Below are positions 4,228 to 10,655 of a stretch of 10,655 bases of DNA, one piece after another. Under the pieces are notes generated by a model. The model was not told the origin of the DNA. It ran no database searches and saw only the letters and a list, made by a program, of their open reading frames with translations. A program made the translations under genes and the position numbers. The stretch's first letter is position 1; each line of letters opens with the position of its first letter. The DNA is taken from positions 1 to 10,655 of IMG/VR virus record IMGVR_UViG_2690316115_000011; one strand, given 5' to 3'. The DNA is from a virus. Taxonomy: Duplodnaviria > Heunggongvirae > Uroviricota > Caudoviricetes.

Positions 4228-4989
4228 TTAGGAATCAAGGTCAGGTAGCATGATTTTCTCAATCAACGTCAATGCCCTTTGGTCTCGTTCAGCAAAATAT
4301 TTAGGAGCGTACTGAGGCAGCCACACTTCGTTGAAGTGTTGTTTGAAATCTGCAAGATATTCGTTTGGGTATAGACGTACCGGGAATGTCCGGCCATCTG
4401 GGTACTCATGGTTATATGTTGGGAATGTCTTCGGCTCAACCCCCCGGTTGTCACGGAGCCATTGCGAGAAAACCCTACCCTCTGAAATATCAGGGACCAT
4501 TTTTTCTGGCAGCGTATATCCGGCCTGTTCAAGTGGCGCAACCAAGTTAAACGTCAGTTCATTAAGCATAGAAAAGTGCGTATGAGGAACTCTGCCTCGG
4601 TTTGTCATATACCGCTTAAGGTGGATAGGGAGTTCGGCAGGCGCTCTTTCACCTGACATCCACTCACGCACCCATCTCGATACTTGCACTGCAAATTTTG
4701 GAGATAGCCACTGAGCTAAATTAATTGCGATGTCTGGATGAACCCAAGTCCCTTGATTCTCTGCTCTTCCGCCTTTAAATGATTGAATTAACTCCGATAT
4801 GGGAATCCCCATATCGCGTGATAATTCATCAAAAAAATCTTGTGTTGTTTTTAGTCGTGTATAGTCAGCAAGTAGCTTCCCCGCAGACTTGCACATCGCG
4901 GTGGCATTGATGTATCCGTCTTTGGTGCGAAGATGGATGACTTCTCCATCAACTTCTCTAGCGATTAATGCAAGTTGAAACTGTGTCAT
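4228..4989 (-). CDS. KilA-N/APSES-like domain protein, 253 aa, with uncharacterised C-terminal half; occupies the rexA-rexB position; candidate exclusion/abortive-infection gene
   Basis: ORF track. Start is 31 nt after the cI stop with SD AGGATGA. Residues ~1-105 show KilA-N/APSES-like motifs (INATAMCKSAGKLLADY ... GGRAENQGTWVHPDIAINLAQWLSPKFAV), comparable from memory to the yeast Mbp1 APSES core. The rest is unrecognised. Confidence 0.75.
   Translation of the reverse strand: MTQFQLALIAREVDGEVIHLRTKDGYINATAMCKSAGKLLADYTRLKTTQDFFDELSRDMGIPISELIQSFKGGRAENQGTWVHPDIAINLAQWLSPKFAVQVSRWVREWMSGERAPAELPIHLKRYMTNRGRVPHTHFSMLNELTFNLVAPLEQAGYTLPEKMVPDISEGRVFSQWLRDNRGVEPKTFPTYNHEYPDGRTFPVRLYPNEYLADFKQHFNEVWLPQYAPKYFAERDQRALTLIEKIMLPDLDS
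4795..4816. repeat. 22-bp near-palindrome cgatatgggaatccccatatcg inside the KilA-N gene (codes DMGIPIS)
   Basis: 9-bp perfect inverted arms CGATATGGG/CCCATATCG. Matches 21 of 22 positions with the palindrome at 10624-10645. Confidence 0.9.
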
Positions 4990-5020: not shown

Positions 5021-5737
<717 letters not shown>

Positions 5738-9810: not shown

Positions 9811-10395
9811 ATGACCACTTTTACAAAAGAGCAGTTAATCAGTCATGTTAGTGAAAATGTAAAGGCGATGAAATTTGCAGTAAAACAGACAGCATTCAAA
9901 AATTCTCTCGAGGCAATTGAGTTGGATTTAGCACTGGCCCTTGTTGCTCAGGCTTCGCTGGAAGCAGAGCCCGTGCTTTATATGAATCGATTTACCGGAA
10001 AGACATTCTCACTGGAAGAGCAACCCGGTGCTGATAAGGAACCGGAAATATACGTGCCGCTATATGCTGCCCCGCCAGACAGCGCCGCCATGCTTCAGGC
10101 TGGAAACTTTCGGGAAAAGAAGGGTTCGTCAACCAATAATTTTCGGGAAATCTCGGAAACGTCAACCAACCATCCGGTAACTCTGGATGGTTGGATAAGC
10201 TGTAGTGAGCGAATGCCGGATGACGGTCAGCACGTAATTATTTTATGTGATGGCGCATTCGTTCTTTATGCGCAATATCGAGACGGTGAGTTTTTTGATG
10301 TAGTCCGTGATGGTGATGAATTTTTCGAAACACAGAGCCGCAATGTAACCGACTGGATGCCGCTACCAGAACCGCCGCAGGAGGTGCGCCAATGA
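9811..10395 (+). CDS. DUF551-like phage protein, ~194 aa (start moved to ATG at 9811)
   Basis: AAAGGAG at 9798-9804 precedes the ATG at 9811. C-terminus DGWISCSERMPDDGQHVIIL...DWMPLPEPP matches the DUF551 signature as I recall it. Internal imperfect tandem NFREKKGSSTN/NFREISETSTN. Confidence 0.65.
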   Translation: MTTFTKEQLISHVSENVKAMKFAVKQTAFKNSLEAIELDLALALVAQASLEAEPVLYMNRFTGKTFSLEEQPGADKEPEIYVPLYAAPPDSAAMLQAGNFREKKGSSTNNFREISETSTNHPVTLDGWISCSERMPDDGQHVIILCDGAFVLYAQYRDGEFFDVVRDGDEFFETQSRNVTDWMPLPEPPQEVRQ

Positions 10396-10475
10396 ACTGG
10401 CCTGAAGCATTTGCAATTACAGGCGTTGCTATGGCTATCACCTTTTTAGTATATGTTATTTGTCGGTGGGGGTAA
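10392..10475 (+). CDS. Small hydrophobic peptide, 27 aa (MNWPEAFAITGVAMAITFLVYVICRWG), overlapping the upstream stop (ATGA)
   Basis: Found by reading; below the ORF-track size cutoff. One predicted transmembrane helix. No clear SD of its own (possible coupling). Confidence 0.35.
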   Translation: MNWPEAFAITGVAMAITFLVYVICRWG

Positions 10476-10510
10476 AAACGTTCGCCGGGATTAACACCAA
10501 AGGAGGGAAT

Positions 10511-10615
10511 ATGTCGGATGATATATCACTGGCAATGGAAGGTGCGCTGGCTGTTATTGCTGTTGTGGGCGTTTACTGCCTGGTTGTGTTTTTGATGGAT
10601 CGACTAGGGAACTGA
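10511..10615 (+). CDS. Small hydrophobic peptide, 34 aa (MSDDISLAMEGALAVIAVVGVYCLVVFLMDRLGN)
   Basis: Found by reading. SD AAAGGAGGG 4-5 nt before the ATG at 10511. One predicted transmembrane helix. Confidence 0.45.
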   Translation: MSDDISLAMEGALAVIAVVGVYCLVVFLMDRLGN

Positions 10616-10623
10616 ATTCATTA

Positions 10624-10645
10624 CGATATGGGAATTCCCATATCG
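10624..10645. repeat. Perfect 22-bp palindrome cgatatgggaattcccatatcg
   Basis: The two 11-nt halves are exact reverse complements. Differs by one base from the copy at 4795-4816. Confidence 0.9.
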
Positions 10646-10655
10646 GGTAAAAACG

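What the first reader, a model, noticed from the sequence alone, without database searches (positions are those of the whole stretch)
4795..4816. 22-bp palindrome duplicated inside the KilA-N gene and at the right window edge
Seen: cgatatgggaatccccatatcg (4795-4816, coding DMGIPIS on the minus strand) and the perfect palindrome cgatatgggaattcccatatcg (10624-10645) agree at 21 of 22 positions, with weaker similarity continuing on one side (tgaatt...). Seen: at the right edge the palindrome codes DMGIPIS on both strands; on the minus strand it ends an ORF entering from beyond the window (..FLPDMGIPIS then two stops). Inference: either a second KilA-N-like gene or gene remnant abuts the window end, or the palindrome is a protein-binding or recombination site shared by two loci of the mosaic prophage.
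Basis: seen in the sequence. Interest (0 to 1): 0.6.

Follow-up and report, generated by a model that had tools for sequence, protein, structure and literature searches.

The report
Conserved DNA palindrome inside KilA-N genes
The 22-bp palindrome is real, and across many bacterial phyla and phages KilA-N DNA-binding-domain genes keep a palindrome at the same codons through paired DNA changes that override the protein sequence; the second copy at the window edge is a small relic of such a gene beside a hok/sok toxin locus.

Summary
Observation confirmed: CGATATGGGAATCCCCATATCG (4795-4816) and the perfect palindrome CGATATGGGAATTCCCATATCG (10624-10645) are the only such sites in the window.

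The window is a lambdoid prophage (100% identical to E. coli ML35). Copy A lies at codons 58-65 of a 253-aa protein with a KilA-N domain and a BstA-type C-terminal domain, encoded directly behind cI like the BstA abortive-infection gene of phage BTP1.

In 90 distinct KilA-N genes found through protein blocks outside the motif, 54 keep a perfect 9+4+9 inverted repeat at these codons, with 16 different arm sequences. All pairs show compensatory changes. The amino acids follow the DNA (D..S, V..T, S..D, A..A). Rare codons are fixed, and the AT-rich centre resists host codon bias. Mismatches show no G·T excess on the sense strand, so the constraint looks like DNA, not RNA.

Copy B is intergenic, about 47-68 nt upstream of the hok mRNA start. 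No ORF continues beyond the window. It is a fossil fragment of roughly 45 nt from a KilA-N gene.

Function is untested. My best guess is a portable DNA site read by the KilA-N domain itself, possibly an aba-like self-immunity mark. A neutral self-correcting palindrome is the main rival. I found no published description.

The parts
4795..4816 (-). PAL copy A: 9+4+9 inverted repeat (sense strand CGATATGGG-GATT-CCCATATCG) covering the 3rd base of codon 58 to codon 65 (DMGIPIS) of the KilA-N/BstA-like gene
4228..4989 (-). Gene for a 253-aa protein: KilA-N domain (aa 13-112) plus a BstA-type C-terminal domain (aa about 120-237)
   Evidence: Pfam PF04383 at 93.6 bits against a cut-off of 23.8. PADLOC BstA model E=2.5e-20 over aa 120-237. 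tblastn to BTP1 BstA C-terminus at 29% identity, with the alignment. AF2 model at pLDDT 93.6. Foldseek top hits are Mbp1 and PCG2 APSES domains.
5021..5734 (-). cI-type repressor (HTH_3 + Peptidase_S24) immediately upstream of, and co-oriented with, the KilA-N/BstA-like gene; context that matches the BTP1 cI-bstA layout
10624..10645 (.). PAL copy B: perfect 22-bp palindrome, intergenic, at the junction between a small-ORF segment and the hok/sok module; its centre lies about 57 nt upstream of position 1 of the hok leader model
10601..10623 (-). Decayed KilA-N-derived tail next to copy B (minus strand taatgaattcagttccctagtcg, against KilA-N gagttaattcaatcatttaaagg, about 12/23 identical); better preserved in L496 (19/22) and L021 (17/22)
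10511..10615 (+). 34-aa hydrophobic ORF (annotated hypothetical protein WP_001278450.1) that ends 8 nt before copy B; part of the inserted segment that carries copy B
10470..10489 (+). First copy of a direct repeat of about 20 bp (gggtaaaaacgttcgccggg). The second copy starts at 10645/10646 (gggtaaaaacggtttgcgg...) and runs off the window. The two copies bracket a segment of about 157 bp (small ORF + copy B) that is absent from many hok-carrying phages
   Evidence: read directly from the sequence and the hok-upstream alignment.

Best explanation
SHOWN. The 22-mer is a DNA-level dyad-symmetric element that is an integral and ancient part of KilA-N-domain genes. It lies across the codons for the end of a long helix, a Gly-Ile-Pro turn and the start of the short helix before the beta-hairpin 'wing'. 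It is kept palindromic by paired substitutions that dictate which amino acids appear there. In this window, copy A is the resident element of a KilA-N + BstA-type gene sitting behind cI. Copy B is a relic of about 45 nt from another KilA-N gene, kept at the junction in front of a hok/sok module.

INFERRED. The element most likely works as double-stranded (or transiently extruded hairpin) DNA recognised by a dimer of the KilA-N domain that it helps to encode. It would be a portable 'self' site that always travels with the gene. It could serve autoregulation. In BstA-type abortive-infection proteins it could mark the phage's own DNA so that the defence spares it, making it a counterpart of the experimentally defined aba element of BTP1. 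On this view copy B and the many gene-less copies in other lambdoid prophages are captured fragments. They either add self sites or let other phages mimic 'self'.
For: Nucleotide-level constraint:
- In KilA-N genes found by protein, synonymous sites are saturated elsewhere in the gene. Codons 59-65 and the third base of the variable codon 58 are frozen (GAT 22/22, CCC 22/23, rare ATA 22/22, TCG 18/18).
- In 90 distinct genes from about a dozen phyla, ascertained only through the QGTWVHP and NLAQWLSP blocks, the arms have 9/9 Watson-Crick pairs in 54 and at least 8/9 in 75, with 16 arm types.
- The mean is 8.37 pairs against 2.33 in 24,210 control windows, none of which reaches 9. Synonymous resampling of the same peptides gives a perfect palindrome in 0.6% against 60% observed.
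- Formal count: 10/10 pairs with double changes, 101 doubly changed cells against 20.2±3.5 in shuffles, covariation score 0.383 against 0.113, and slid registers at most 0.08.
- Distant cultured-phage KilA-N genes (25-50% identity) have their best or near-best palindrome at the same position even when the peptide is unrelated, e.g. D3 orf11 NTSDSRD.

DNA rather than RNA:
- G·T (9) and A·C (13) mismatches are equally common on the sense strand.
- The centre is self-complementary AATT in 62/90. It is held against codon bias in high-GC3 genes: GGA/GGG 11/12 against 35% elsewhere, ATT 9/12 against 18%, ATA 8/8 against 5%.

Link to the protein:
- The element follows the KilA-N domain whatever the C-terminal domain.
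- There is normally one site per phage, inside the gene.
- The encoded residues sit in the winged-helix region of an APSES-like DNA-binding fold.

Precedent: BstA, with the same gene position behind cI, is neutralised by a DNA element inside its own locus that works as DNA and is cognate (PMC8585504).

Gene-less copies:
- They are far commoner than a composition-matched control palindrome (at least 119 against 7 viral contigs).
- They occur in 978 E. coli genomes against 139 with the gene.
- The hok-side copies stay palindromic while their KilA-N-derived flank decays, and L496 even carries a compensated pair.
Against: - No binding, regulation or immunity was or could be tested here.
- Many different arm sequences are hard to reconcile with one fixed protein specificity. 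Each KilA-N would need its own cognate specificity, which is not shown.
- Arms are identical among enterobacterial alleles from 77 to 100% amino-acid identity, so there is no sign of a fast specificity arms race.
- The mapped aba of BTP1 lies elsewhere (-29 to +34), has terminal direct repeats rather than a palindrome, and BTP1 bstA has no PAL. The window gene has nothing aba-like at its start.
- Owen et al. found that whole bstA loci did not cross-protect between variants, so a shared PAL could not be the only specificity determinant.
- PAL also occurs in KilA-N genes without a BstA domain, including giant-virus contigs, so a BstA-specific role cannot be the whole story.
- A common class (D..T, 'PIT') carries an A·A mismatch at pair 3-20.
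- The two copies in this prophage do not generally co-occur.
Confidence: 0.4

Rival explanations
1. Self-perpetuating palindrome with no function (mutational drive). Short quasi-palindromes are corrected to perfect palindromes by template switching during replication. Once the ancestral KilA-N gene had a perfect palindrome in a tolerant part of the protein, any change in one arm would be either reverted or copied to the other arm faster than a second point mutation arrives. That would give lasting palindromy, 'compensatory' changes and amino acids that follow the DNA, in any host, and also in decayed fragments such as copy B.
For: The constraint is symmetric on the two strands, with no G·T excess. 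It persists in non-coding relics whose flanks decay. It is independent of host phylum and of the C-terminal domain. The two centre variants GATT and AATC are reverse complements of each other, as expected from spacer inversion. Template-switch correction of quasi-palindromes is established knowledge (Ripley; Lovett and co-workers; cited from memory).
Against: - The 4-nt centre, which hairpin-templated correction cannot homogenise, is nevertheless held as RATY, mostly AATT, against strong codon bias in high-GC genomes.
- The element keeps the same arm length, spacer and exact codon position over very deep divergence.
- Imperfect classes such as D..T (A·A mismatch) persist in many lineages without being corrected.
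- Conserved perfect palindromes are not a general feature of coding sequences: 24,210 control windows in the same genes never reach 9/9.
- Gene-less copies sit at non-random places, next to a promoter or directly before terminators.
Confidence: 0.25
2. Recombination-prone hairpin or cruciform: the palindrome is a preferred break-and-join point for structure-specific nucleases or illegitimate recombination. That would be why fragments ending exactly at its edge are scattered at module junctions of lambdoid phages (in front of hok, in front of nin-region terminators).
For: Copy B and its relatives keep KilA-N sequence on one side only, and the homology stops exactly at the palindrome's other edge. 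In hok loci lacking PAL, the hok-module homology begins right where PAL would end. In other phages PAL sits between the stop codons of unrelated genes and a shared terminator. The single strand can fold at -8.6 to -9.4 kcal/mol, and the AT-rich centre would favour extrusion.
Against: This explains dispersal, not why the palindrome is conserved inside intact genes. KilA-N alleles show a local conservation peak at PAL, not a sharp identity breakpoint. Arms of 9-11 bp are short for cruciform extrusion or SbcCD attack (my knowledge).
Confidence: 0.15
3. mRNA hairpin: the inverted repeat folds in the KilA-N transcript and slows ribosomes, is cut by an RNase, or is bound by the protein, so that it tunes expression of a potentially toxic protein.
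For: All stem pairs covary. The hairpin is stable. A published survey reports conserved mRNA structure in sub-groups of KilA-N genes of eukaryotic viruses, without describing this element (PMC6563262).
Against: There is no excess of G·U-compatible over A·C mismatches on the sense strand (9 against 13), unlike real RNA helices. The loop is constrained to be self-complementary AATT, which an RNA tetraloop does not need. Copy B lies upstream of the hok promoter, and the sequence is a perfect palindrome irrespective of transcription direction. No T-run follows, so it is not an intrinsic terminator. Rfam has no match.
Confidence: 0.1
4. Binding site for a conserved host or phage factor other than the KilA-N protein (a global regulator, nucleoid protein, resolvase or restriction-type enzyme).
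For: The site is a perfect 22-bp dyad with a conserved GGRATYCC core. The same 22-mer recurs in unrelated intergenic contexts in enterobacterial phages.
Against: The arms differ among hosts (16 types), and the element occurs from Proteobacteria to Firmicutes, Chloroflexi, CPR bacteria, jumbo phages and giant-virus contigs. No single trans factor is shared by all of these. The only thing that always accompanies the site is the KilA-N gene itself.
Confidence: 0.05

Closest known systems
aba (anti-BstA) self-immunity DNA element of the BstA abortive-infection system, prophage BTP1 (Owen et al. 2021, PMC8585504)
   Same: A short DNA element inside the locus of a KilA-N(-like) + BstA-C protein encoded directly behind the prophage repressor. 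It acts as DNA, travels with the gene and is proposed to be cognate to its protein. The window gene has the same position and the same C-terminal domain.
   Different: aba is 63 bp spanning -29 to +34 of bstA, with terminal CCCGCC direct repeats. PAL is a 22-bp palindrome at codons 58-65. BTP1 bstA has no PAL, and the window gene has nothing aba-like at its start. PAL is tied to the canonical KilA-N domain, including proteins without a BstA domain. No immunity function of PAL has been tested.
Binding sites embedded in the gene of the protein that binds them: lambda ori iterons inside gene O; HK022 Roi site inside roi (both from memory; the Roi paper PMC178163 could not be read)
   Same: Dyad-symmetric DNA sites lie within the coding sequence of a DNA-binding protein, are inherited as one module with it, and constrain the local amino-acid sequence.
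   Different: Lambda has four iterons plus an AT-rich region and a proven replication role. Here there is a single palindrome at a fixed codon position across a whole domain family, binding is not shown, and the conservation works through covariation of arms rather than through a fixed sequence.
Quasi-palindrome template-switch mutation hotspots (Ripley model; E. coli thyA/lacZ reporters; from memory)
   Same: Short inverted repeats with a few-nucleotide spacer. A change in one arm can be copied to the other, which gives apparent compensatory changes on DNA with no strand preference.
   Different: Those are mutational hotspots seen in the laboratory, not elements conserved at one codon position across phyla. 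They do not explain the constrained centre.
Repetitive extragenic palindromes (REP/BIME) and intrinsic terminators
   Same: Palindromic. Some gene-less PAL copies sit between a stop codon and a terminator.
   Different: PAL is primarily intragenic. There are 0 to a few copies per genome and 82% of E. coli genomes have none. There is no T-run, and no REP-like sequence or copy number.
hok/sok type I toxin-antitoxin loci
   Same: Copy B lies about 47-68 nt upstream of the hok leader of a hokD-type locus.
   Different: PAL is not part of the hok/sok unit. Among 56 distinct upstream regions of Hok-ascertained loci only a minority carry it, and in the rest the module homology starts just after the PAL position.

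Membership tests
KilA-N domain (Pfam PF04383) / APSES-type winged helix | Match to the family profile above the curated threshold | tested here: met
   93.6 bits against a cut-off of 23.8, aa 13-112.
KilA-N domain (Pfam PF04383) / APSES-type winged helix | APSES-like fold (beta strands, helices and a beta-hairpin wing) | tested here: met
   AF2 pLDDT 93.6, with the wing at 68-71/80-83. Foldseek top hits are Mbp1 1MB1/1BM8, the PCG2-DNA complex 4UX5, and Bqt4.
KilA-N domain (Pfam PF04383) / APSES-type winged helix | Sequence-specific DNA binding | not testable with these tools
   Needs EMSA, footprinting or ChIP.
BstA abortive-infection family | [quoted passage not shown] | tested here: met
   PADLOC BstA model E=2.5e-20 over aa 120-237. 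29% identity to the BTP1 BstA C-terminus. The N-domain is a canonical KilA-N, not the divergent BTP1 type.
BstA abortive-infection family | Gene directly downstream of, and co-oriented with, the prophage repressor | tested here: met
   cI-type gene at 5021..5734(-) and KilA-N/BstA-like gene at 4228..4989(-), separated by 31 bp. Same layout in BTP1.
BstA abortive-infection family | Abortive-infection defence that blocks phage DNA replication | not testable with these tools
   Requires plaque and replication assays as in PMC8585504.
aba (anti-BstA) element as defined in BTP1 | Element of about 63 bp overlapping the start of the gene (-29..+34), with terminal direct repeats | tested here: not met
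   PAL is at nt 174-195 of the gene and is an inverted, not a direct, repeat. There is no aba-like sequence and there are no terminal repeats at the gene start.
aba (anti-BstA) element as defined in BTP1 | DNA element within the locus that suppresses the cognate protein in cis or at high copy in trans | not testable with these tools
   This is the functional definition. PAL is a candidate only by analogy.
Structured RNA element (mRNA hairpin) | Covarying stem with tolerance of G·U but not A·C on the transcribed strand | tested here: not met
   Covariation is strong, but G·T occurs 9 times and A·C 13 times on the sense strand, and the centre is self-complementary. No Rfam match.
Intrinsic (rho-independent) terminator | GC-rich stem followed by a T-run | tested here: not met
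   No T-run follows either copy on either strand. The scan does not list them.
REP/BIME-type extragenic repeats | High copy number, extragenic only | tested here: not met
   No site in 82% of E. coli genomes and a median of about 2 sites in carriers. The primary location is inside a coding sequence.
hok/sok locus (as a component of it) | Conserved in loci defined by Hok and the hok leader | tested here: not met
   Present in only a subset of 56 distinct Hok-ascertained upstream regions. Module homology starts after the PAL position.
Lambda O/ori-type origin inside an initiator gene | Array of several iterons plus an AT-rich unwinding region | tested here: not met
   A single palindrome per gene. 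The only other half-site-like 9-mers in the window (3773, 4671) each carry one mismatch.

The most novel reading that the evidence does not exclude
KilA-N-domain genes, from temperate phages of a dozen bacterial phyla to jumbo phages and giant viruses, carry their own recognition palindrome inside the codons for the turn of their DNA-reading surface. On this reading the site and part of the reading head are the same nucleotides, which makes a self-referential protein-DNA module. In BstA-type prophage defences this site would be the self/non-self mark (a palindromic aba), with arm variants defining cognate pairs. Other lambdoid phages would have stolen 22-45-nt fragments of it (copy B in front of hok, and the copies in front of nin-region terminators) as decoys against the defence.
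Probability: 0.15. Interest if true: 0.92.

Novelty: new variant of a known kind. Interest (0 to 1): 0.8.

Why it matters
If the palindrome is functional, it is a cis element hidden in plain sight in one of the most widespread viral DNA-binding domains, the ancestor of fungal APSES cell-cycle regulators. Here the DNA structure, not the protein, sets the local amino-acid sequence. It gives a concrete 22-bp candidate for how KilA-N proteins, whose DNA targets are unknown in phages, recognise DNA. It also gives a candidate for how BstA-type prophage defences of the canonical KilA-N class avoid killing their own phage. Owen et al. explicitly left open how aba DNA suppresses BstA. Gene-less copies are about seven times more widespread than the gene in E. 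coli, including up to four sites in O157:H7 genomes. That suggests either molecular mimicry between competing prophages or an unrecognised regulatory signal in Stx-type phages. If the palindrome is instead a neutral, self-correcting structure, it would be a rare natural example of a mutational mechanism shaping a protein sequence over very long times. Both outcomes can be tested with a synonymous recoding experiment.

Tried and rejected
1. Second KilA-N gene beyond the window edge: rejected. The frame is open for only 17 codons, and the apparent tblastn similarity running into the hok leader is full of stops and anchored only by DMGIPIS.

2. PAL equals the published aba element: rejected as a membership claim, because the position and architecture differ and BTP1 has no PAL.

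3. KilA-N gene and gene-less PAL as an obligatory pair: rejected. There is no KilA-N gene within about 7 kb of hok-type or terminator-type PAL loci, and one PAL per contig in the listed viral contigs. The gene is in 139 E. coli genomes and PAL in 978.

4. PAL as part of the hok/sok module: rejected.

5. Intrinsic terminator or known RNA family: rejected.

6. PAL as a sharp recombination breakpoint between KilA-N alleles: not supported. There is only a local conservation peak.

7. Extended palindrome TGAATTA...TAATTCA around copy A: not conserved in the family. Only the first outer pair is, at 71% Watson-Crick.

8. Literature searches gave nothing relevant. They covered the 9-mers; KilA-N with palindrome, synonymous or cruciform; and BstA with hairpin. 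The 9-mer hits were unrelated primers.

9. A megablast of the terminator-context element against cultured phages found nothing.

10. My quick regex classification of the 119 PAL loci over-counted the KilA-N class. I rely on the tblastn count (31 loci) and the flank listing instead.

11. The variant-palindrome sets, including the giant-virus and jumbo-phage examples, were found by DNA pattern and are therefore biased. They are used only as illustrations, not in the statistics.
Full report
OBSERVATION. Copy A is CGATATGGGAATCCCCATATCG at 4795-4816, and copy B is the perfect palindrome CGATATGGGAATTCCCATATCG at 10624-10645. Allowing three mismatches, they are the only such sites in the window, and no dinucleotide-preserving shuffle produced any. 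Copy A encodes DMGIPIS (residues 59-65) on the minus strand. Copy B reads DMGIPIS on both strands.

WHERE THE WINDOW COMES FROM. The right-hand kilobase is 100% identical to a lambdoid prophage of E. coli ML35 and 99.9% identical to prophages of O104:H4 strains. Using the ML35 record (L001; window x = L001 x+2401), the local order is: pL-side recombination genes, then a KilA-N gene (4228..4989, minus), a cI-type repressor (5021..5734, minus), cro, cII, replication genes, DUF1627/DUF977/DUF551 genes and two tiny hydrophobic ORFs. Just past the window edge come hokD, further toxin-antitoxin pairs and the nin region.

The 253-aa product of 4228..4989 has a KilA-N domain at aa 13-112 (Pfam 93.6 bits). 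Its C-terminal half matches the PADLOC model for BstA (E = 2.5e-20) and aligns with the C-terminus of BTP1 BstA. It lies 31 bp behind cI, the same layout as cI-bstA in BTP1. BstA is a prophage abortive-infection protein. Its self-immunity depends on aba, a 63-bp DNA element spanning -29 to +34 of bstA (PMC8585504). PAL is not that element. It sits at nt 174-195 of the gene and is an inverted rather than a direct repeat. BTP1 bstA has no PAL, the window gene has nothing aba-like at its start, and the paper does not mention a palindrome.

COPY B. Extending past the edge shows no gene on the minus strand: the DMGIPIS frame is open for only 17 codons. The Rfam hok/sok leader model matches L001 13093-13267 at 116.9 bits, followed by the Hok ORF. 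From my knowledge of plasmid R1, that position corresponds to the 5' end of hok mRNA.

I collected hok loci through the Hok protein rather than through PAL. Only a minority of the 56 distinct upstream regions contain PAL. In the others, the homology of the hok module begins exactly where PAL ends, directly after the stop codon of a small hydrophobic ORF. In the window, a direct repeat of about 20 bp (gggtaaaaacg...; 10470-10489 and from 10645/10646) brackets a segment of about 157 bp made of the 34-aa ORF plus copy B.

On the side away from hok, related loci retain sequence that follows PAL in KilA-N genes (gagttaattcaatcatttaaag, coding SELIQSFK). L496 keeps 19/22 of it, L021 17/22, and the window about 12/23. 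Copy B is therefore a fossil fragment of roughly 45 nt from a KilA-N gene. Its flank has decayed while the 22-mer stayed perfect. L496's palindrome has itself changed through a compensated pair (A-T to G-C).

THE MAIN RESULT. A scan of viral contigs for CGATATGGG-N4-CCCATATCG returned at least 119 loci, capped by the tool. The contexts are KilA-N coding sequence, hok upstream regions, a recurrent 'stop codon - ccatacaag - PAL - intrinsic terminator' arrangement in the nin region of other lambdoid phages, and assorted others. A composition-matched control palindrome gave 7 hits.

Pattern searches are biased, so I re-ascertained KilA-N genes through the protein. In 34 distinct DNAs down to 62% amino-acid identity, synonymous sites are saturated throughout the domain. 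Codons 59-65 are frozen as GAT ATG GGR ATY CCC ATA TCG, including the rare ATA codon and one of six Ser codons. Even the third base of the variable codon 58 is C.

I then used a profile whose search patterns lay outside the motif (QGTWVHP, NLAQWLSP). This gave 90 distinct genes from Proteobacteria, Verrucomicrobiota, Bacillota, Bacteroidota, Spirochaetia, Planctomycetota, Chloroflexota, Armatimonadota, CPR bacteria and others. At the homologous 22 nt:
- 54 genes have 9/9 Watson-Crick pairs, 21 have 8/9 and 11 have 7/9, with 16 different arm sequences.
- The amino acids follow the reverse-complement rule. Residues 59/65 are D..S, V..T, S..D or A..A. Residues 60/64 are M/I..I, T..V, A..A or V..T.
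- Even the near-invariant G61/P63 are replaced together (DLQIGRS, DMQICTS) with the palindrome retained.

Controls:
- Mean 8.37 pairs against 2.33 in 24,210 other windows of the same genes, none of which reaches 9.
- Random synonymous codons for the same peptides give a perfect palindrome in 0.6%, against 60% observed.
- The covariation tool finds 10/10 pairs with double-sided changes and 101 doubly changed cells against 20.2±3.5 in shuffles. The covariation score is 0.383 against 0.113, and all slid registers are at most 0.08.

Cultured-phage KilA-N genes at only 25-50% identity have their best or near-best palindrome at the same position although the peptide can be unrelated. These are Synechococcus S-SRP02, Planktothrix PaV-LD, Bacteroides LoVEphage, Pseudomonas D3 orf11, Salmonella Oslo and others. 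D3, for example, has AATACCTCG-GATT-CGAGGGATT coding NTSDSRD.

Pattern scans for two compensated variants found them in KilA-N genes of jumbo-phage contigs at about 30% GC and of giant-virus MAG contigs with T5orf172-like C-termini. These are illustrative only, because they were found by DNA pattern.

DNA OR RNA? On the sense strand, G·T mismatches (9) are no commoner than A·C (13), unlike real RNA helices. The four central bases are self-complementary AATT in 62/90. They are held against codon bias in high-GC3 genes: Gly61 GGA/GGG in 11/12 against 35% elsewhere, Ile62 ATT in 9/12 against 18%, and Ile64 ATA in 8/8 against 5%. No T-run follows, and Rfam has no match. The constraint therefore looks like dyad symmetry of DNA. 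The single strand could also fold, at -8.6 to -9.4 kcal/mol.

WHERE IN THE PROTEIN. The AlphaFold model (pLDDT 93.6) puts residues 47-60 in a long helix, G61-I62-P63 in a turn, 64-67 in a short helix, and then the wing strands at 68-71 and 80-83. The fold matches Mbp1 and the PCG2-DNA complex. The palindrome thus encodes part of the winged-helix region rather than a disordered linker.

DISTRIBUTION. PAL is not a generic repeat. Only 978 of 5,426 complete E. coli genomes have any match. Because the query is palindromic, each site is counted on both strands, so the median is about 2 sites, with up to about 7 in prophage-rich strains. The KilA-N/BstA-like gene itself is found in only 139 genomes, so most E. 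coli sites are gene-less copies. In 80 listed viral contigs no contig carried two sites, and hok-type or terminator-type loci have no KilA-N gene within about 7 kb. The pairing seen in this window is therefore not a general rule.

INTERPRETATION. What is shown is a conserved, covarying DNA palindrome that is part of KilA-N genes, with a relic copy next to hok. The mechanism below is inferred.

I favour (0.4) a cis-acting site read by a dimer of the KilA-N domain itself. The gene is the only partner that always accompanies the site across hosts. The core GGRATYCC is sequence-constrained. The site is normally single and intragenic. The BstA/aba system also provides a direct precedent for a DNA element inside such a gene that tells the protein 'this replicon is self'. 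Lambda ori inside gene O and, from memory, the Roi site inside roi of HK022 are older precedents for sites inside the gene of their binder.

Against this view: nothing was tested biochemically, many arm types would require cognate specificities, the arms are identical among 77-100% identical alleles, aba in BTP1 is a different element, and PAL also occurs in KilA-N proteins without a BstA domain.

The main rival (0.25) is a neutral, self-correcting palindrome maintained by template switching. It explains the strand symmetry, the host independence and the persistence in relics. It does not explain the constrained centre or the non-random positions of gene-less copies. Weaker rivals are a recombination-prone hairpin (0.15), an mRNA hairpin (0.1) and a site for another factor (0.05).

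NOVELTY. Full-text searches found no description of this element. The terms were the 9-mers; KilA-N with palindrome, synonymous or cruciform; and BstA with hairpin or aba. The closest hit, a survey of conserved mRNA structures, only uses a eukaryotic-virus KilA-N group as an example. I file the element as a new variant of a known kind (a cis DNA site embedded in the gene of a DNA-binding protein, and aba-like elements). Its function is open, and the synonymous recoding experiment in the next steps would test it directly.

Noticed in passing
window 4228-4989 (-) with 5021-5734 (-): The KilA-N gene is a BstA-type candidate abortive-infection gene sitting 31 bp behind cI (the position of rexAB in lambda and of bstA in BTP1). 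RefSeq annotates it only as 'KilA-N domain-containing protein'. Its N-domain is a canonical KilA-N, unlike the divergent one of BTP1 BstA.
   Followed up: yes
L001 13093-13507 (just beyond the right window edge; would be window about 10692-11106): Complete hok/sok-type locus: Rfam sok/hok leader at 116.9 bits, mok-like and Hok ORFs, and a terminator. A sub-threshold isrK-like match (31 bits) overlaps the terminator region. Further toxin-antitoxin pairs (Doc-type, RelE/ParE + HTH) follow in the same nin-side region.
   Followed up: partly
window 10470-10489 and 10645-10655 (continues in L001 to about 13066): A direct repeat of about 20 bp (gggtaaaaacg[g]tt[c/t]gc[c/g]gg) brackets a segment of about 157 bp containing the 34-aa ORF and copy B. 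Phages lacking the segment have a single copy of the repeat between the '...CRWG*' ORF and hok. It looks like an insertion or a repeat-mediated gain or loss.
   Followed up: partly
window 10393-10476 (+) and 10511-10615 (+): Two tiny hydrophobic ORFs (27 aa MNWPEAFAITGVAMAITFLVYVICRWG; 34 aa MSDDISLAMEGALAVIAVVGVYCLVVFLMDRLGN) lie between DUF551 and hok. The first type recurs in front of hok in many phages. No Pfam match for the second.
   Followed up: no
L091 1490-1560, L075 6060-6130, L046 6286-6360 and about 20 other viral loci: A recurrent module 'stop codon - (c)taccatacaag - PAL - ac.. - GGCCTCTTCGGAGGCCTTTTT' lies in the nin region of other lambdoid phages. It follows different genes (for example a C5 DNA methyltransferase ending ...VPPPFAEALVRANLPEMCEQREQAA) and precedes DUF1367/NinB-type genes. 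PAL sits 2-8 nt before an intrinsic terminator.
   Followed up: partly
L013 6600-6960 and L006 13620-13980: PAL sits between repeats of GGCAACCAATGCGCGC (three copies, operator-like), next to a run of TGTCCCGC iteron-like repeats, in an intergenic control region of an unidentified element.
   Followed up: no
L233, L248, L290, L292 (ORFs of 630-740 aa): Another protein family (...NGGPRMEAHAGHDIG[QNS]PISTIAASGSHQTPV...) carries the CGATATCGG/CCGATATCG arms with a variable centre. This may be a second gene family with an embedded palindrome. It was found by DNA pattern only.
   Followed up: no
L223 (244-kb contig, 27% GC), ORF of 445 aa: A KilA-N + T5orf172-like protein with a tandem motif '...GMGIPIDENPETGIPVS...', that is, two GIP turns in a row. 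The second carries the CGAAACGGGAATTCCCGTTTCG palindrome in an AT-rich genome.
   Followed up: no
window 4783-4828: Around copy A the symmetry extends imperfectly (TGAATTAtcacg-PAL-gagtTAATTCA on the sense strand). Across the family only the first outer pair is conserved (71% Watson-Crick), so the longer dyad is specific to the enterobacterial alleles.
   Followed up: yes
L001 1143-3215 with 59-844 and 1-62: The prophage carries both a RecE-family exonuclease and lambda-type Exo/Bet/Gam, plus a Rac-type kil gene, which marks a strongly mosaic pL operon.
   Followed up: no
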